A DNA stretch of 64,000 bases from Escherichia coli (GTDB lineage Bacteria; Pseudomonadota; Gammaproteobacteria; Enterobacterales; Enterobacteriaceae), in NCBI RefSeq assembly GCF_003018255.1, contig NZ_CP027440.1; one strand, written 5' to 3'. The position numbers were made by a program, and so were the translations under genes. This document shows positions 25,088 through 56,340 of the stretch, one piece after another. The first letter of the stretch is position 1. Each line of letters begins with the position of its first letter. Below the pieces are notes generated by a model. That model saw nothing but the letters and a program-made list of their open reading frames with translations. It made no database searches and had not been told where the DNA came from.

Positions 25088-25579
25088 ATGGGTAAAAAAA
25101 CAGCACCGTTACTCCCTTATACGAATCAGATGCTTAGTGAATTTGGTGAGCGGCTGAAACTTGCTCGTTTACGACGCAGGCTTACCGCAAAGCAAGTTGC
25201 TGAACGTGCTGGGATGTCGCCAATAACATTGCGCTCTCTGGAGTCAGGAAGTGCAGGGGTCACGATAGGGGCATATTTGTCTGTGATGCAGGTTTTGGGC
25301 CTGGAAACGGATTTAAATAAGCTTGCAGCTGAAGACGACTTAGGGCGTCAGCTCCAGGATTCCCGTTTGATTAAAAAAAGAGGGCTTTCTCGTGCATCAA
25401 GTAAGAATGAAGAAGGTTCTCAGACAGCCTCATTGCAGATGAGGCACGAGAAAGAAGGTCATCTCACCACGGATTTAACAGCACTGGCAGAAGGCTCGAC
25501 GCCATCTATTACAGGAGAAACATCAACCTCTCTTGCAGCACTATTAAAACCGATAAAAAAACCGTTAAAAGGAAATTAA
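25088..25579 (+). CDS. XRE-family HTH protein, HipB-like putative antitoxin with long C-terminal extension
   Basis: 163 aa; HTH_XRE signature around [32 protein letters not shown]; Ser/Thr/Glu-rich low-complexity C-terminal ~75 aa; stop 25577-25579 is 2 bp before the kinase ATG. Confidence 0.75.
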
Positions 25580-25581
25580 TT

Positions 25582-26850
25582 ATGGCATTAATCGGAGTGT
25601 ATGCGGATTGGGAAGGCCTGGATGGTCCGGAGCGGATTGGTTATTTACACAGTCGCCGCACTCGGACGCGTGAGATATTTGAGTTTGAGTACGATAAAAA
25701 GGCGCTTGCAGATCCTTCACTTAATTTCATTCAGTTAGATCCTGAAATAATGTTGTATGAGGGAGCACACTACCCAATTCCTCCAAAGGATAAATTTGGT
25801 GCATTTAGTGATTCCTGCCCGGATCGTTGGGGGCGTATGCTAATGAAGCGTCGTTTTGAGAGGGATATTCGAGACGGGTTATGTGATAAAGACTCCCACC
25901 TTTATGAGTCTGATTATCTACTAGGTGTTCATGATCTTTATCGGGTTGGGGCCCTTCGATACAAACGTGAAGACGCTGGAGAGTTTCTTGATAATCGCAT
26001 TGATGTTGCAGCCCCACCATTTACCGAAATAGCGAGTCTGGAAAGGGCTAGCCGGGCAATTGAAGAAGATCCTGATAATAAAGAGCTAATGGGGCAAAAA
26101 TGGTTAAGAATGCTAATCGCTCCGGGGGGATCATTAGGGGGGGCACGTCCGAAAGCCAGTGTTGTTGATGAAGCTGGGCATCTCTACATCGCTAAATTTC
26201 CCAGTGTAAAAGATGAGTATGATGTTGGTGGATGGGAAATGGCCGTTAATGCACTTGCTGTTGGCTGTGGACTGAATGTTGCACCTGCTCAGGCGCATAA
26301 ATTTGCCAGCAATTACCATTGTTTTATGGTTCGTCGTTTTGACCGCACTAATGCGGGAAGGCGTCTGCATTTTGCTTCGGCTATGACACTAACCAGGCAT
26401 CAGGATGGTGAAGATGCCTCTACAGGTGTGAGTTATCTGGAATTAGCAGATGTTCTTATCAGGCATGGCGCGCAGACTAATACTGATCTTAAGGAACTCT
26501 GGTCCAGGATTGTTTTTAATATTCTTGTTTCTAATACCGATGATCATTTACGCAATCATGGATTTATCTTGATACCAGGAAAAGGTTGGCGGCTTTCTGA
26601 GGCATATGATTTGAATCCTGTGGTCAGGTCTGATGGTTTAAAACTCAATATTACGGAAAATGACAATGCACTTGATTTGGAATTAGCTAGAGAAGTTGCA
26701 GAGTATTTTCGACTTAGTTTGACGGAAGCTGATGACATTATTGCTAATTTTAGAGGGATTGTCAGTCAGTGGCGAATCATTGCCGAGCGTCTGAGATTAC
26801 CTGGTCGTGAGCAAGAGTTAATGGCAGAGGCATTCAGAGCGTCAATTTAG
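25582..26850 (+). CDS. HipA-family serine/threonine kinase (putative type II toxin)
   Basis: 422 aa; Gly-rich loop GGSLGGARPKAS, catalytic-loop motif NTDDHLRNHG and HipA_C-like C-terminus (DLNPVV...); aaggaa RBS upstream of ATG. Confidence 0.8.
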   Translation: MALIGVYADWEGLDGPERIGYLHSRRTRTREIFEFEYDKKALADPSLNFIQLDPEIMLYEGAHYPIPPKDKFGAFSDSCPDRWGRMLMKRRFERDIRDGLCDKDSHLYESDYLLGVHDLYRVGALRYKREDAGEFLDNRIDVAAPPFTEIASLERASRAIEEDPDNKELMGQKWLRMLIAPGGSLGGARPKASVVDEAGHLYIAKFPSVKDEYDVGGWEMAVNALAVGCGLNVAPAQAHKFASNYHCFMVRRFDRTNAGRRLHFASAMTLTRHQDGEDASTGVSYLELADVLIRHGAQTNTDLKELWSRIVFNILVSNTDDHLRNHGFILIPGKGWRLSEAYDLNPVVRSDGLKLNITENDNALDLELAREVAEYFRLSLTEADDIIANFRGIVSQWRIIAERLRLPGREQELMAEAFRASI

Positions 26851-37040: not shown

Positions 37041-38453
37041 ATGGTAGATCAGGTAAAAGTCGTTGCCGATGATCAGGCTCCGGCTGAACAGTCGCTACGG
37101 CGCAATCTCACAAACCGACATATTCAGCTTATTGCCATTGGCGGTGCCATTGGTACAGGGTTGTTTATGGGGTCCGGCAAAACGATTAGCCTTGCCGGGC
37201 CGTCGATCATTTTCGTTTATATGATCATCGGTTTTATGCTCTTTTTCGTGATGCGGGCAATGGGGGAATTGCTGCTTTCGAATCTGGAATACAAATCTTT
37301 TAGTGACTTCGCTTCCGATTTACTCGGGCCGTGGGCAGGATATTTCACCGGCTGGACCTACTGGTTCTGCTGGGTTGTAACCGGTATGGCAGACGTGGTG
37401 GCGATCACGGCTTATGCTCAGTTCTGGTTCCCCGATCTCTCCGACTGGGTCGCCTCGCTGGCGGTGATAGTGCTGCTGCTGACGCTTAACCTCGCCACCG
37501 TGAAAATGTTCGGTGAGATGGAGTTCTGGTTTGCGATGATCAAAATCGTCGCCATTGTGTCGCTGATAGTCGTCGGCCTGGTCATGGTGGCGATGCACTT
37601 TCAGTCACCGACCGGTGTGGAAGCGTCATTCGCGCATTTGTGGAATGATGGCGGCTGGTTCCCGAAAGGTTTAAGTGGCTTCTTTGCCGGATTCCAGATA
37701 GCGGTTTTCGCTTTCGTGGGGATTGAGCTGGTAGGTACAACAGCTGCGGAAACCAAAGATCCAGAGAAATCACTGCCACGCGCGATTAACTCCATTCCGA
37801 TCCGTATCATTATGTTCTACGTCTTCGCGCTGATTGTGATTATGTCCGTGACGCCGTGGAGTTCGGTAGTCCCGGAGAAAAGCCCGTTCGTTGAACTGTT
37901 TGTGTTGGTAGGTTTGCCTGCGGCTGCCAGCGTGATCAACTTTGTGGTGCTGACCTCTGCGGCGTCTTCCGCTAACAGCGGTGTCTTCTCTACCAGCCGT
38001 ATGCTGTTTGGTCTGGCCCAGGAAGGTGTGGCACCGAAAGCGTTCGCTAAACTCTCTAAGCGCGCAGTACCCGCGAAAGGGCTGACCTTCTCTTGTATCT
38101 GTCTGCTCGGCGGCGTGGTGATGTTGTATGTGAATCCCAGCGTGATTGGCGCGTTCACGATGATTACAACCGTTTCCGCGATTCTGTTTATGTTTGTCTG
38201 GACGATTATCCTTTGCTCGTACCTGGTGTATCGCAAACAGCGTCCTCATCTGCATGAGAAGTCGATCTACAAGATGCCACTCGGCAAGCTGATGTGCTGG
38301 GTATGTATGGCGTTCTTTGTGTTTGTTCTGGTGTTGTTGACACTGGAAGATGACACCCGCCAGGCGCTGCTGGTTACCCCGCTGTGGTTTATCGCGCTGG
38401 GGCTGGGCTGGCTGTTTATTGGTAAGAAGCGGGCTGCTGAACTGCGGAAATAA
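37041..38453 (+). CDS. cycA: D-serine/D-alanine/glycine:H+ symporter (APC family)
   Basis: 470 aa amino-acid permease, MVDQVKVVADDQAPAEQSLRRNLTNRHIQLIAIGGAIGTGLF. Confidence 0.95.
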   Translation: MVDQVKVVADDQAPAEQSLRRNLTNRHIQLIAIGGAIGTGLFMGSGKTISLAGPSIIFVYMIIGFMLFFVMRAMGELLLSNLEYKSFSDFASDLLGPWAGYFTGWTYWFCWVVTGMADVVAITAYAQFWFPDLSDWVASLAVIVLLLTLNLATVKMFGEMEFWFAMIKIVAIVSLIVVGLVMVAMHFQSPTGVEASFAHLWNDGGWFPKGLSGFFAGFQIAVFAFVGIELVGTTAAETKDPEKSLPRAINSIPIRIIMFYVFALIVIMSVTPWSSVVPEKSPFVELFVLVGLPAAASVINFVVLTSAASSANSGVFSTSRMLFGLAQEGVAPKAFAKLSKRAVPAKGLTFSCICLLGGVVMLYVNPSVIGAFTMITTVSAILFMFVWTIILCSYLVYRKQRPHLHEKSIYKMPLGKLMCWVCMAFFVFVLVLLTLEDDTRQALLVTPLWFIALGLGWLFIGKKRAAELRK

Positions 38454-38497
38454 TCGCATTATCATGCTGGATGGCGCAATGCCATCCAGCTTTTAGA

Positions 38498-43920: not shown

Positions 43921-44661
43921 ATGTTAGATCAAGTATGCCAGCTTGCACGGAATGCAGGCGATGCCATTATGCAGGTCTACGACGGGACGAAACCGATGGA
44001 CGTCGTCAGCAAAGCGGACAATTCTCCGGTAACGGCAGCGGATATTGCCGCACACACCGTTATCATGGACGGTTTACGTACGCTGACACCGGATATTCCG
44101 GTGCTTTCTGAAGAAGATCCTCCCGGTTGGGAAGTCCGCCAGCACTGGCAGCGTTACTGGCTGGTAGACCCACTGGATGGTACTAAAGAGTTTATTAAAC
44201 GTAATGGCGAATTCACCGTTAACATTGCGCTCATCGACCACGGCAAACCGATTTTAGGTGTGGTGTATGCGCCGGTAATGAACGTAATGTACAGCGCGGC
44301 AGAAGGCAAAGCGTGGAAAGAAGAGTGCGGCGTGCGCAAGCAGATTCAGGTCCGTGATGCGCGCCCGCCACTGGTCGTTATTAGCCGATCCCATGCAGAT
44401 GCAGAGCTGAAAGAGTATCTGCAACAGCTTGGCGAACATCAGACCACGTCCATCGGCTCTTCGCTGAAATTCTGCCTGGTGGCGGAAGGGCAGGCGCAGC
44501 TGTACCCGCGCTTCGGACCAACGAATATTTGGGACACCGCCGCTGGTCATGCCGTGGCTGTAGCTGCCGGAGCGCACGTTCACGACTGGCAGGGTAAACC
44601 GCTGGATTACACTCCGCGCGAGTCGTTCCTGAATCCGGGGTTCAGAGTATCTATTTATTAA
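43921..44661 (+). CDS. cysQ: 3'(2'),5'-bisphosphate nucleotidase CysQ
   Basis: 246 aa [22 protein letters not shown]; inositol-monophosphatase-family motif [12 protein letters not shown]. Confidence 0.95.
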
Positions 44662-45208
44662 TTAATTTATGCAGCAGGTCCATCACTTGCTGCACCTCTT
44701 CCTGAGTAAGCGCCCCGTCTTTGGCCCATTGCACGCGACCGTCTTTATCCAGCACCACTACAGCGGAACTTTCTTCATCCAGCTGCCAGGCACCGCGCGC
44801 GACGCCATTGCTATCGACAATAAACTGCGACCAGGGATAAAGCTTTTTATTACTCTCCAGACTGCTGCGCACAAACATGCCGGAACCCGGAATTGCGTCG
44901 TCGGTGTTAACAATGGTGGTGGTCTGGTAACGATCGTGCGGTAACTTTGCTGATTTAATCGCTTCAATCAGCGTCGCGTTTTTCTCTTTTGCAGAGGTGC
45001 GACCAGCAATATGTTGCAGTACTCGCACTTTTCCCACTAGCTGCGCGCTGTTCCAGGTTTTGTAGCTAAACTGATCTTTATCAAGCACCAACTCGCCACG
45101 ATCGGTAATGCCAATCGGCGGCACTCGCTGACCGGTTTCGAACTGATGTGCGGAAGCCATCATCGGCAACAGCAGGCAGGTGAGTGCCAGAATCTTGCGT
45201 AGGGTCAT
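44651..45208 (-). CDS. ytfJ: Periplasmic protein YtfJ (DUF1107-like)
   Basis: 185 aa with signal peptide [20 protein letters not shown]; convergent 11-bp overlap with cysQ. Confidence 0.88.
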
Positions 45209-48268: not shown

Positions 48269-53820
<5,552 letters not shown>

Positions 53821-53822
53821 CA

Positions 53823-54164
53823 ATGCGAATATTTGTCTACGGCAGTTTACGCCACAAACAAGGCAACAGTCACTGGATGACCAATGCCCAGTTACTGGGC
53901 GATTTCAGTATCGATAACTACCAGTTGTATAGCCTGGGCCACTATCCAGGCGCAGTTCCGGGGAACGGAACAGTACACGGTGAAGTTTATCGTATTGATA
54001 ACGCCACGCTGGCCGAACTTGATGCCTTGCGCACCAGGGGCGGTGAATACGCGCGCCAGTTGATTCAGACGCCGTACGGGAGTGCATGGATGTACGTTTA
54101 TCAACGACCCGTCGATGGATTAAAGCTAATTGAAAGCGGCGACTGGTTAGACAGGGATAAGTAA
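53823..54164 (+). CDS. ytfP: Gamma-glutamylcyclotransferase-family protein YtfP
   Basis: 113 aa MRIFVYGSLRHKQGNSHWM (GGCT/AIG2-like YGSL motif). Confidence 0.9.
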   Translation: MRIFVYGSLRHKQGNSHWMTNAQLLGDFSIDNYQLYSLGHYPGAVPGNGTVHGEVYRIDNATLAELDALRTRGGEYARQLIQTPYGSAWMYVYQRPVDGLKLIESGDWLDRDK

Positions 54165-54543
54165 TAATAAAAGCACGCCACCTTCGGGTGGCGTTGTTTT
54201 ATGCGATGTATCTCGCGATTTTTTTTGTAACTTTCCCATCTTTTGCTTTTCTCTCCGGGCCGCTTTCCATATCTGCAATCGCATAAAAAACTCTGCTGGC
54301 GTTAACAAATGTACAGGGGTAAAACGGGGACACGCTTTGAACGGTGAGTATGAGTGAGGCCGGCTAACTTCCAGCAAGTGGCTATGAACAGCAAAATGGT
54401 GGTCGAGTTTAGCTTGTTCTTACCGTTCAAGCCTTTCAACTGCTGAAAATAATAATAGTGGAGTAGAGAGTTTATAAATTGCGGGCATAAAAAAACCCTT
54501 ACTAACCGAAGCCCGGTGTTCAGGGTTATTGCGCCAGAAGAAC

Positions 54544-55074
54544 TTATTTATTCTTGGCGCGCTCGAAGGAAGCAACGATTTCAGCTTTAGCGGCTTCTGC
54601 GTTTTCCCAACCTTCAACTTTAACCCACTTGCCTTTTTCGAGGTCTTTGTAGTGCTCGAAGAAGTGAGCGATTTGCGCTTTCAGCAGCTCTGGCAGATCG
54701 TTAACGTCTTTAATGTGATCGTATTCTTTGCTCAGCTTGGTGTGCGGAACAGCAATCAGTTTCGCATCTTCACCGGCTTCGTCGGTCATTTTCAGTACGC
54801 CAACCGGACGGCAGCGGATCACAGAACCCGGCTGCAGCGGGTACGGAGTCGGGACCAGTACGTCAACCGGGTCACCGTCCAGAGACAGAGTGTGGTTGAT
54901 GTAACCGTAGTTGCACGGATAGAACATCGCGGTGGACATGAAGCGGTCAACGAACAGTGCGCCGCTCTCTTTGTCGATTTCGTATTTGATTGGATCTGCG
55001 TTAGCCGGGATCTCAATAACAACGTAGATGTCTTCCGGCAGATCTTTACCCGCAGGGACGTTGAGTAAGCTCAT
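54544..55074 (-). CDS. ppa: Inorganic pyrophosphatase
   Basis: 176 aa [35 protein letters not shown]. Confidence 0.97.
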
Positions 55075-55383
55075 GTCTGTTTCCTTTAAAAATATGTGGC
55101 AAACAAGTGCCGAGTATTATAGCCAACTCGCGCCGAATGTCTTCGCTTGTTTTCGTCTTCATTTTCCTTTTTCGCCAGTTTTAAGACGGTATACAGAGCA
55201 GGAAAATCCATAACCGTAGCCGCATTTTTCATAGTGAGATGAAAGCGATTACAAACTTGTGATTAACGTTTTATTTACTTTTTTGAAGTGTGATGTAACG
55301 CAATCCGTTACATAACGAATTGTCTATAGTTTTTTCGCGAACATCTTTTCACCAATAATAATTACCCCGACGAGGACAACCCT

Positions 55384-56340
55384 ATGTGGAAACGCTTACT
55401 TGTAGTCTCTGCAGTCTCGGCAGCCATGTCGTCTATGGCGTTGGCCGCTCCATTAACCGTTGGATTTTCGCAGGTCGGGTCGGAATCCGGCTGGCGCGCC
55501 GCAGAAACCAATGTGGCGAAAAGTGAAGCCGAAAAGCGCGGAATTACGTTGAAAATTGCCGATGGTCAGCAAAAGCAGGAAAACCAGATTAAAGCGGTAC
55601 GTTCCTTCGTCGCGCAAGGGGTGGATGCGATCTTTATCGCTCCAGTGGTAGCGACCGGTTGGGAGCCGGTATTAAAAGAGGCGAAAGATGCCGAAATCCC
55701 GGTCTTCTTGCTTGACCGTTCCATCGATGTGAAAGACAAATCTCTCTATATGACCACTGTCACCGCCGACAACATCCTCGAAGGCAAGTTGATTGGTGAC
55801 TGGCTGGTAAAAGAAGTGAATGGCAAACCATGCAACGTGGTGGAGCTGCAGGGCACCGTTGGGGCCAGCGTCGCCATTGACCGTAAGAAAGGCTTTGCCG
55901 AAGCCATTAAGAATGCGCCAAATATCAAAATTATCCGCTCGCAGTCAGGTGACTTCACCCGCAGCAAAGGCAAAGAAGTGATGGAGAGCTTTATCAAAGC
56001 GGAAAACAACGGCAAAAACATCTGCATGGTTTACGCCCATAACGATGACATGGTGATTGGTGCAATTCAGGCAATTAAAGAAGCGGGCCTGAAACCGGGC
56101 AAAGATATCCTGACAGGCTCTATCGACGGTGTGCCGGACATCTACAAAGCGATGATTGATGGCGAAGCGAACGCCAGTGTTGAACTGACGCCGAATATGG
56201 CAGGTCCCGCCTTCGACGCGCTGGAGAAATATAAAAAAGACGGCACCATGCCTGAAAAGCTGACGTTAACCAAATCCACCCTTTATCTGCCTGATACCGC
56301 AAAAGAAGAGTTAGAGAAGAAGAAAAATATGGGGTATTGA
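55384..56340 (+). CDS. ytfQ: ABC transporter periplasmic sugar-binding protein (galactofuranose-binding YtfQ)
   Basis: 318 aa with signal peptide MWKRLLVVSAVSAAMSSMALA; type I periplasmic binding-protein fold. Confidence 0.93.
   Translation: MWKRLLVVSAVSAAMSSMALAAPLTVGFSQVGSESGWRAAETNVAKSEAEKRGITLKIADGQQKQENQIKAVRSFVAQGVDAIFIAPVVATGWEPVLKEAKDAEIPVFLLDRSIDVKDKSLYMTTVTADNILEGKLIGDWLVKEVNGKPCNVVELQGTVGASVAIDRKKGFAEAIKNAPNIKIIRSQSGDFTRSKGKEVMESFIKAENNGKNICMVYAHNDDMVIGAIQAIKEAGLKPGKDILTGSIDGVPDIYKAMIDGEANASVELTPNMAGPAFDALEKYKKDGTMPEKLTLTKSTLYLPDTAKEELEKKKNMGY

What the first reader, a model, noticed from the sequence alone, without database searches (positions are those of the whole stretch)
54165..54543. 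No chpS-chpB toxin-antitoxin genes between ytfP and ppa
In K-12, as I recall, the chpSB (ChpBK/ChpBI, MazEF-like) module lies between ytfP and ppa. Here the gap is 379 bp of non-coding sequence with terminator-like hairpins for both flanking genes and no ORF resembling an AbrB-fold antitoxin or PemK/MazF toxin. The strain therefore lacks chpSB while carrying a HipBA-like module elsewhere in the window.
Basis: partly seen in the sequence, partly recalled or inferred. Interest (0 to 1): 0.4.

Follow-up and report, generated by a model that had tools for sequence, protein, structure and literature searches.

The report
Decayed chpSB toxin-antitoxin locus scar
This E. coli strain has no working chpS-chpB toxin-antitoxin genes between ytfP and ppa, but the spacer still holds a decayed fragment of chpB; this is a common allele carried by about 43% of complete E. 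coli genomes, and the gene-level polymorphism is already published, so it is ordinary.

Summary
ytfP (53823-54164, +) and ppa (54544-55074, -) are separated by 379 non-coding bases, whereas K-12 has an 886-bp spacer carrying chpS and chpB. The spacer is not free of chpSB sequence, though. Window 54336-54445 is a decayed piece of chpB (codons 7 to about 44): TBLASTN E=2.7e-6, and DNA alignment score 51 against 10.3±1.2 for shuffles. It has in-frame stops, a frameshift, no chpS and no chpS start region.

In 5426 complete E. coli genomes, 5422 match this 143-bp segment, nearly all at a single place. It is the relic in 2324 genomes and intact chpB in about 3098. So the two states are alleles of one locus. 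The esiB-carrying allele (188 genomes) is the relic allele with esiB inserted next to the ytfP terminator.

E. albertii and another Escherichia lineage carry the same relic architecture. Intact chpSB sits at the same offset from ytfP in other Escherichia species and in Lelliottia, Enterobacter, Pseudocitrobacter and Kluyvera. The null state is therefore an old loss, not a site that was never occupied.

The three-state locus (chpBS, esiB, neither) was published in 2013. One oddity remains unexplained: the retained piece is exactly a roughly 96-nt hairpin of chpB. The HipBA-like side claim is correct.

The parts
53823..54164 (+). ytfP (gamma-glutamylcyclotransferase family), the left flank
   Evidence: 113-aa ORF; Pfam GGACT E=1.2e-28; annotated ytfP in matching E. 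coli genomes
54175..54200 (+). ytfP intrinsic terminator (GCCACC-TTCG-GGTGGC stem plus T-run). In other strains esiB or an integrase-bearing element is inserted beside this hairpin.
   Evidence: Terminator scan. Fold of 54165-54230: -24.5 kcal/mol, z=-4.5. The hairpin is duplicated around esiB in NC101 and AST85.
54202..54226 (+). Second small hairpin followed by a run of 8 T
   Evidence: Terminator scan
54227..54326 (+). Sequence homologous to the K-12 region upstream of chpS. It stops about 50 bp before the chpS start, so the palindrome, the Shine-Dalgarno sequence and the start codon of chpS are missing.
   Evidence: blastn: K-12 gap 11-162 matches window 54175-54326 at 84%; global alignment
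54327..54335 (.). Junction bases (GGGGACACGC region) replacing about 314 bp of K-12 (proximal chpS promoter region, all of chpS, first 17 nt of chpB)
   Evidence: Alignments. The same junction occurs in all relic alleles, including E. albertii.
54336..54445 (+). chpB pseudogene fragment (codons 7 to about 44). It has in-frame stops at 54345-54347 (TGA) and 54410-54412 (TAG) and a 1-nt deletion. Positions 54336-54431 form a long imperfect hairpin.
   Evidence: tblastn E=2.7e-6. Local DNA alignment score 51 versus shuffles 10.3±1.2. Translation ..PASGYEQQNGGRV*LVLTVQAF... Folds.
54446..54469 (+). AT-rich remainder with a trace of the chpB 3' end (GTGGAGTAG versus K-12 GTGGTGGAATAA). About 200 bp of chpB are missing between this and the fragment, possibly lost between two TGGTGG repeats.
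   Evidence: Alignments. The microhomology is read by eye and is inference.
54488..54527 (-). ppa terminator-like hairpin plus U-run
   Evidence: Fold. 93% identical to K-12 and well conserved across relic alleles. Not called by the scan.
54544..55074 (-). ppa (inorganic diphosphatase), the right flank
   Evidence: 176-aa ORF; Pfam Pyrophosphatase E=2.5e-60

Best explanation
The 379-bp ytfP-ppa spacer is the null allele of the chpSB locus. A chpS-chpB (MazE/MazF-type, type II) toxin-antitoxin operon once sat here and was destroyed, leaving about 110 bp of chpB.

Shown:
- Two internal losses relative to the intact locus. One removes about 314 bp: the proximal chpS upstream region, all of chpS and chpB nt 1-17. 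The other removes about 200 bp of the chpB 3' half.
- The remaining chpB piece carries stop codons and a frameshift and is about 70-80% identical to intact Escherichia chpB, depending on the span aligned.
- Nothing in the spacer can encode an antitoxin or a toxin.
- The allele is common: 2324 of 5426 complete E. coli genomes. It is strictly allelic with intact chpB.
- The same architecture occurs in E. albertii and in one more Escherichia lineage.
- chpSB occupies the same offset from ytfP in several other enterobacterial genera.

Inferred:
- chpSB is ancestral at this site, at least for Escherichia.
- The null allele arose once, early, and has since drifted almost neutrally and been shuffled by recombination.
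- The order of decay was toxin first, since the nonsense mutation TGA sits at codon 10. This is the only safe order for losing a toxin-antitoxin pair. An antitoxin-only stage may have followed, and then chpS was lost.

Functional consequence: this strain has no ChpB RNase and no ChpS at this locus. The spacer now serves only to terminate the convergent ytfP and ppa transcripts.
For: - K-12 has chpS and chpB here.
- tblastn with ChpB hits 54371-54460 at E=2.7e-6, and blastn aligns three collinear blocks.
- The local alignment of chpB nt 18-145 scores 51 versus 10.3±1.2 for shuffles. The translation shows stops.
- The relic segment matches 5422 of 5426 genomes, nearly all at one place each: 2324 at >=80% coverage with no annotated gene, and about 3097 at about 80% identity inside annotated chpB. 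This agrees with 3100 genomes carrying chpSB and 2311 carrying the whole relic spacer.
- E. albertii and locus L009 have collinear 378-bp relic spacers at 85-86% identity.
- All relics share the same junctions. They are about 70% identical to Escherichia chpB but only 45-53% identical to chpB of other genera.
- chpS begins 213-218 bp after ytfP in E. whittamii, three other Escherichia lineages, Lelliottia, Enterobacter asburiae, Pseudocitrobacter, Kluyvera and isolate RIT691. Independent relics with different retained pieces occur in Citrobacter sedlakii and Enterobacter cloacae.
- Published description of the chpBS / esiB / neither states at this locus: PMC3735183.
- General decay of chromosomal TA loci at conserved positions: review PMC7167474.
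Against: - The deletion end points cannot be fixed to the base because of later divergence.
- The relic is about 30% diverged from intact chpB, yet relic alleles differ from each other by only 8-16%. A simple clock would therefore put the loss well before the E. coli / E. albertii split. Alternatively the relic comes from an unsampled divergent chpB allele.
- Spacer diversity within E. coli (down to 85%) far exceeds that of the flanking genes (97-99.8%), so recombination or import has blurred the history.
- A single origin of the relic is inferred from shared junctions, not from a phylogeny.
- The toxin-first order of decay is inference only.
Confidence: 0.9

Rival explanations
1. The spacer is the ancestral empty site, and chpSB was inserted by horizontal transfer only in the K-12-like lineages.
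For: Chromosomal TA systems are generally regarded as horizontally acquired accessory genes (review PMC7167474). The ytfP-ppa spacer is a cargo hotspot in many genera. Many species have minimal spacers of 100-160 bp with no trace of chpSB.
Against: The 'empty' allele contains a collinear chpB fragment. Every relic-type E. coli genome has that fragment at the place where the others have chpB. chpSB sits at the same offset in five or more genera.
Confidence: 0.04
2. The retained chpB piece is kept because its hairpin does something. It might be a structured RNA or DNA element, for example the former 3' stabiliser of the chpS message, later exapted. Under this view the relic is not merely junk.
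For: - The retained piece coincides with a long hairpin that already exists in intact Escherichia chpB (K-12: -46.4 kcal/mol, z=-4.1).
- The relic consensus keeps -43.3 kcal/mol, whereas a neutral simulation gives -28.5±4.8. Only 0.4% of simulated sequences are as stable.
- G.U-type mismatches on the plus strand outnumber A.C by 10-12 to 2, and the minus strand does not fold (z=-0.05).
- One pair changed on both sides and stayed paired (G.U to U-A).
- A stabilising stem-loop in the 5' region of the homologous kid gene is reported (cited in PMC3760812).
- The relic segment is somewhat better conserved among relic alleles than the left part of the spacer (93% versus 88%).
Against: - No plus-strand promoter was found, and two terminator-like hairpins lie upstream. 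There is no Rfam match.
- Among relic alleles no pair changed on both sides, and about as many changes break pairs as keep them.
- E. albertii has lost the stability (-27.7 kcal/mol, 55% of simulations as stable).
- The hairpin is not conserved in chpB of other genera.
- Relics in Citrobacter and Enterobacter keep other parts.
- pemK has no equivalent long hairpin.
- Template-switch mutation in quasi-palindromes (named from my own knowledge, not checked here), or a transient antitoxin-only stage, could explain the retention without any present function.
Confidence: 0.08
3. chpSB is not lost but sits elsewhere in this strain's genome, outside the 64-kb window or on a plasmid.
For: Three of the 3101 chpSB places in the E. 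coli genome collection are on plasmids, and one plasmid carries a 99% identical chpSB.
Against: There is no ChpS or ChpB homology elsewhere in the window. The median is one chpSB place per genome, with 3101 places in 3100 genomes. Counts of relic and intact alleles add up to 5422 of 5426 genomes, nearly all with one place each.
Confidence: 0.03

Closest known systems
The ytfP-ppa polymorphic locus of E. coli (chpBS / esiB / neither), Pastorello et al. 2013, mBio (PMC3735183)
   Same: Same locus and same 'neither' state. That paper reports 53% chpBS, 15% esiB and 32% neither in 47 genomes, with esiB flanked by short direct repeats of partial inverted symmetry. Here the counts are 57% chpSB, 3.5% esiB and about 39% neither in 5426 genomes.
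   Different: In the passage I read, that paper describes both genes as absent. Here the 'neither' and esiB alleles are both shown to carry the same chpB remnant, and the repeat around esiB is the ytfP terminator hairpin.
chpS-chpB (ChpBI/ChpBK) type II toxin-antitoxin module of E. coli K-12, MazE/MazF family
   Same: The fragment at 54336-54445 is homologous to chpB codons 7-44 and lies at the syntenic position.
   Different: There is no antitoxin gene, no toxin ORF and no chpS start region. This is a pseudogene remnant, not a member of the system.
Decay of the chromosomal ccdO157 toxin-antitoxin system in E. coli (Mine et al. 2009, as summarised in review PMC7167474)
   Same: A chromosomal type II TA at a conserved intergenic position is progressively lost by nonsense mutations and deletions, and strains differ in state.
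   Different: It is a different TA family and locus. I could not read the primary paper or Fiedoruk et al. 2015, so I do not know whether a chpB remnant was already noted.
Stem-loop in the 5' region of kid (parD/kis-kid of plasmid R1) that stabilises the antitoxin-encoding message (Ruiz-Echevarria et al. 1995, cited in PMC3760812)
   Same: A stem-loop inside the 5' part of a PemK/Kid-family toxin gene. The chpB hairpin occupies nt 19-115 of the toxin gene.
   Different: The resemblance is an analogy only. The pemK 5' region folds into a short local stem, not the long hairpin, and its fold energy is not unusual (z=+0.4). No experiment exists for chpB. The chpB hairpin is confined to Escherichia.

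Membership tests
chpSB / MazEF-type type II toxin-antitoxin module | Antitoxin gene with a MazE/AbrB-type (SpoVT-AbrB) domain upstream of the toxin | tested here: not met
   tblastn with K-12 ChpS (Pfam MazE_antitoxin) gives no hit in 54165-54543. The best hit in the window is E=0.065, inside tamB. The alignment shows all of chpS deleted.
chpSB / MazEF-type type II toxin-antitoxin module | Intact PemK/MazF toxin ORF of about 110-116 aa | tested here: not met
   Only codons 7 to about 44 are recognisable, with stops at 54345-54347 and 54410-54412 and a frameshift. Translated ORFs and the relic peptide match no Pfam family at E<=10.
chpSB / MazEF-type type II toxin-antitoxin module | Operon start region: the palindrome, Shine-Dalgarno sequence and start codon of chpS | tested here: not met
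   K-12 spacer positions 163-211 (GTTATAC-TTT-GTATAAC palindrome, AGGAGG, ATG) have no counterpart in the window. No plus-strand promoter-like site was found. The operator role of the palindrome is my inference.
Pseudogene remnant of chpB | Significant, collinear homology to chpB at the syntenic position, with the reading frame destroyed | tested here: met
   E=2.7e-6. Score 51 versus 10.3±1.2 for shuffles. Allelic with annotated chpB across 5422 genomes. Stops and frameshift present.
Rho-independent terminators of the flanking genes | G+C-rich stem-loop followed by a U-run just after the stop codon | tested here: met
   ytfP: called by the scan, and the fold of 54165-54230 gives z=-4.5. ppa: a hairpin plus UUUUUUU is present and conserved, but it was not called by the scan and its energy is not unusual.
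Known structured RNA families (Rfam 15) | Covariance-model match at or near the gathering score | tested here: not met
   The only hit in 53800-55400 is S15 leader at 17.9 bits against a gathering score of 39.5, E=0.27, inside ppa.
   25088-25579 is HTH_31 (E=6.6e-11). 25582-26850 is HipA_C (E=2.1e-47), an intact 422 aa, starting 3 nt after the HTH gene ends. Kinase activity and toxicity were not tested.

The most novel reading that the evidence does not exclude
The chpB fragment survives because it is a roughly 96-nt RNA hairpin. The hairpin would originally have been a 3' stabiliser of the chpS message, comparable to the kid 5' stem-loop. It would have been kept by selection after the toxin was inactivated and may still act as a structured element between ytfP and ppa. 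On this reading the null and intact alleles have coexisted since before E. coli and E. albertii split.
Probability: 0.08. Interest if true: 0.45.

Novelty: already known. Interest (0 to 1): 0.15.

Why it matters
It matters little for discovery. Presence or absence of chpSB at ytfP-ppa is a published, common polymorphism, and no fitness effect of chpB was found under stress (review PMC2654758).

Three points are useful in practice. First, strains with this allele, including B-lineage laboratory strains such as T7Express, are natural chpSB nulls. Second, the 'empty' and esiB alleles are descendants of a decayed chpSB. This argues for old vertical presence and repeated loss of this TA module rather than recent acquisition. 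Third, gene-level annotation misses the remnant, so pangenome tables record a clean absence where sequence shows a loss.

Tried and rejected
- Rfam scan of 53800-55400 at E<=1: nothing relevant.
- Pfam on all small ORFs of the gap and on the relic peptide at E<=10: no family.
- Promoter scan: no plus-strand site, and one weak minus-strand site at 54478-54449, no more than shuffles give.
- Test of whether the chpB hairpin is a conserved RNA structure across genera: it is not. 76.7% of cells are paired against 74.2% in shuffles, and the consensus energy is -6.5 kcal/mol.
- Covariation among relic alleles: no pair with changes on both sides.
- Column-wise comparison of intact and relic hairpins by MAFFT was unreliable, because the 5' arm was offset by one column. 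I relied instead on each sequence's own fold and on arm-against-arm alignment.
- Search for the same long hairpin in plasmid pemK: absent.
- Fiedoruk et al. 2015 and Ramisetty & Santhosh 2016, the papers most likely to mention a chpB remnant, are not held. Full-text searches for a chpB remnant or an sRNA in this spacer found nothing.
- I first assumed the window was strain 104 and mapped the HipBA pair wrongly. The window is another strain, 98.4-98.9% identical with two indels.
- My third-codon-position identities may use the wrong frame for tamB and are not used.

Full report
**What is at the coordinates.** The window is E. coli chromosome. tamB (50041-53820) and ytfP (53823-54164) lie on the plus strand. 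They are followed by 379 bases (54165-54543) and then by ppa on the minus strand (54544-55074) and ytfQ (55384-56340). The gap has a strong ytfP terminator: stem 54175-54194 plus a T-run, with the 66-nt stretch 54165-54230 folding at -24.5 kcal/mol, z=-4.5. A second small hairpin with a run of T lies at 54202-54226. A conserved hairpin plus U-run for ppa lies at about 54488-54527 on the minus strand, though the scan did not call it. None of the small ORFs in the gap matches any Pfam family, even at E<=10. Rfam gives nothing.

**The requested test.** TBLASTN of K-12 ChpS and ChpB against the whole window found no ChpS homology; the best hit, E=0.065, lies inside tamB. It found one significant ChpB hit, and that hit is inside the interval: 54371-54460, 60% identity over ChpB residues 19-48, E=2.7e-6. 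At the DNA level the K-12 spacer aligns in three collinear blocks:
- K-12 11-162 with window 54175-54326 (84%), which is the ytfP terminator and the distal region upstream of chpS.
- K-12 510-585, inside chpB, with window 54370-54442 (80%).
- K-12 813-886 with window 54470-54543 (93%), which is the ppa terminator.

A more sensitive local alignment extends the middle block to K-12 475-601 against window 54336 to about 54462. Its score is 51, against 10.3±1.2 for shuffled sequence. The translation reads ..LPASGYEQQNGGRV*LVLTVQAFQLL.. against ChpB DPASGHEQQGAGRPALVLSVQAFNQLG. There is a further in-frame TGA at 54345-54347 and a 1-nt deletion. The spacer is therefore a scar. All of chpS, its start region and the first 17 nt of chpB are gone (about 314 bp), and so are about 200 bp of the 3' half of chpB. 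About 110 nt of chpB remain as a dead fragment.

**How common it is.** I searched 5426 complete E. coli genomes.
- The whole relic spacer is present at >=80% coverage in 2311 genomes.
- K-12 chpSB is present in 3100 genomes.
- esiB is present in 188 genomes.
- The 143-bp relic segment alone matches 5422 of 5426 genomes, nearly all at one place. In 2324 genomes it is a full-length relic with no annotated gene. In about 3097 it is an 80% match lying inside annotated chpB.

The two states are thus alleles of one locus and together account for essentially the whole species. B-lineage T7Express carries the relic. The esiB allele (NC101, AST85, PBP8) reads ytfP, esiB, relic spacer, ppa. esiB is inserted beside the ytfP terminator hairpin, which is duplicated.

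**Where it came from.** One genome per species was scanned with YtfP, and each locus was then examined for ppa, ChpS and ChpB.
- Intact chpSB, with chpS starting 213-218 bp after ytfP, is present in E. whittamii and three other non-coli Escherichia lineages. It is also present in Lelliottia, Enterobacter asburiae, two Pseudocitrobacter species, a Kluyvera and isolate RIT691.
- Citrobacter sedlakii keeps a different chpB piece (residues 63-107). Enterobacter cloacae keeps a chpS piece (residues 9-31).
- E. albertii, and one further Escherichia lineage labelled E. coli SCPM-O-B-8794, have 378-bp spacers collinear with the window's. They have the same junctions and are 85-86% identical.
- All relics are about 70% identical to Escherichia chpB but only 45-53% identical to chpB of other genera.

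From this I infer that chpSB is old at this site, that the Escherichia relic arose once, and that it has since drifted. The spacer is far more diverse within E. coli (down to 85%) than the flanking genes (97-99.8%). NC101 looks like a mosaic of two relic types, so recombination has shuffled the alleles. For a toxin-antitoxin pair the toxin must be disabled first. The nonsense codon at chpB codon 10 fits that order, but the order is inference.

**What is already published.** Pastorello et al. 2013 (PMC3735183) described exactly this locus with three states: chpBS in 53%, esiB in 15% and neither in 32% of 47 genomes. They noted short direct repeats around esiB. Reviews state that chromosomal TA loci sit at conserved positions and decay by deletion and nonsense mutation (PMC7167474). 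They also state that no fitness gain has been attributed to chpB under stress (PMC2654758). I could not read Fiedoruk et al. 2015 or Ramisetty & Santhosh 2016, so I cannot say whether the chpB remnant itself has been reported. The finding as written, absence of chpSB, is known biology.

**An unexplained detail.** The retained chpB piece, 54336-54431, is almost exactly a long imperfect hairpin that exists in intact Escherichia chpB at nt 19-115 (K-12: -46.4 kcal/mol, z=-4.1).
- The relic alleles of E. coli still fold well, at -36 to -40 kcal/mol for the 95-96-nt core. The relic consensus folds at -43.3 kcal/mol.
- I applied the same number of random changes to the K-12 sequence. This gave -28.5±4.8 kcal/mol, and only 0.4% of simulations were as stable as the consensus.
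- Mismatches are mostly of the G.U type on the plus strand, 10-12 against 2 A.C, and already 7 against 1 in K-12. The minus strand does not fold.
- One pair changed on both sides and stayed paired (GGGGAG/CTCTCC to GGTGAG/CTTACC). The G-to-T change in that pair is the nonsense mutation.

Several results argue against a present function.
- There is no plus-strand promoter, and two terminator-like hairpins lie upstream.
- No pair among the relic alleles shows changes on both sides, and about as many changes break pairs as keep them.
- E. albertii has lost the stability.
- The structure is not conserved in chpB of other genera.
- pemK has no equivalent long hairpin.

A stabilising stem-loop in the 5' region of the related kid gene is reported (cited in PMC3760812). 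The hairpin may therefore have mattered while chpS was still expressed, which would explain its retention without any present role. I rate a present function at under 10%.

**Verdict.** This is an ordinary, already described polymorphism, and interest is low.

Noticed in passing
window 25088-26850: HipBA-like pair: a 163-aa HTH_31 protein followed 3 nt later by an intact 422-aa HipA_C protein. It lies next to rplI, and I do not recall a HipBA pair at this position in K-12. In the related strain 104 the hipA homologue is annotated as frameshifted.
   Followed up: partly
L001 2317-2413 (K-12 chpB nt 19-115); window 54336-54431: Intact Escherichia chpB contains a roughly 97-nt long hairpin in its 5' third (-46 to -51 kcal/mol, z about -4). 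It has many G.U pairs on the mRNA strand. It is not conserved in chpB of other genera. I found no report of it.
   Followed up: partly
L093 1198-1709 (E. coli HH45): Hybrid allele. It has relic-type flanks and junctions, but the hairpin core is 100% identical to intact K-12 chpB, and a 131-bp G/C-rich low-complexity insert lies just upstream. This is either short-patch conversion ending at the hairpin feet or an assembly artefact.
   Followed up: partly
L003 2334-4368, L005, L090; window 54165-54205: esiB is inserted beside the ytfP terminator hairpin, and a copy of the hairpin lies on each side. In CFSAN051542 (L091) a phage-integrase gene abuts the same point. The terminator region seems to be a recurrent insertion site.
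   Followed up: partly
L012-L085, between ytfP and ppa: The ytfP-ppa spacer is a cargo hotspot across Enterobacteriaceae. Examples: TonB-dependent receptor plus beta-propeller protein (Citrobacter; Lelliottia, together with chpSB), Hcp-fusion protein (S. enterica arizonae, C. youngae), a chemoreceptor (MAG labelled Pluralibacter sp., L055), and GGDEF-EAL plus chloramphenicol acetyltransferase (Huaxiibacter). Other species have minimal 93-190-bp spacers.
   Followed up: partly
L028 4638-4770; L034 7100-7168: Independent chpSB remnants in other genera keep different pieces: ChpB residues 63-107 in Citrobacter sedlakii and ChpS residues 9-31 in Enterobacter cloacae.
   Followed up: no
window 54165-54543 versus flanks: The spacer differs by up to 15% between E. 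coli strains whose ytfP and ppa are 97-99.8% identical. NC101 is window-like on the right and esiB-type on the left, a recombinant pattern.
   Followed up: partly
window 54449-54478 (minus strand): The only promoter-like site in the gap (TTTATA-18-TATTAT) points leftwards, antisense to the chpB relic. It is no more than shuffles give.
   Followed up: no
window 38425-38497 and 44661-44666: Relative to strain 104, which is 100% identical over ytfP-ppa, the window lacks about 2.0 kb and about 1.2 kb at these two points. Elsewhere it is 98.4-98.9% identical, so the window comes from a different strain.
   Followed up: no
plasmid NZ_AP023207.1 19509-19856: A 99% identical chpS-chpB pair is annotated on an E. 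coli plasmid, and 3 of the 3101 chpSB places in the genome set are plasmid-borne. The module is therefore occasionally mobilised.
   Followed up: no
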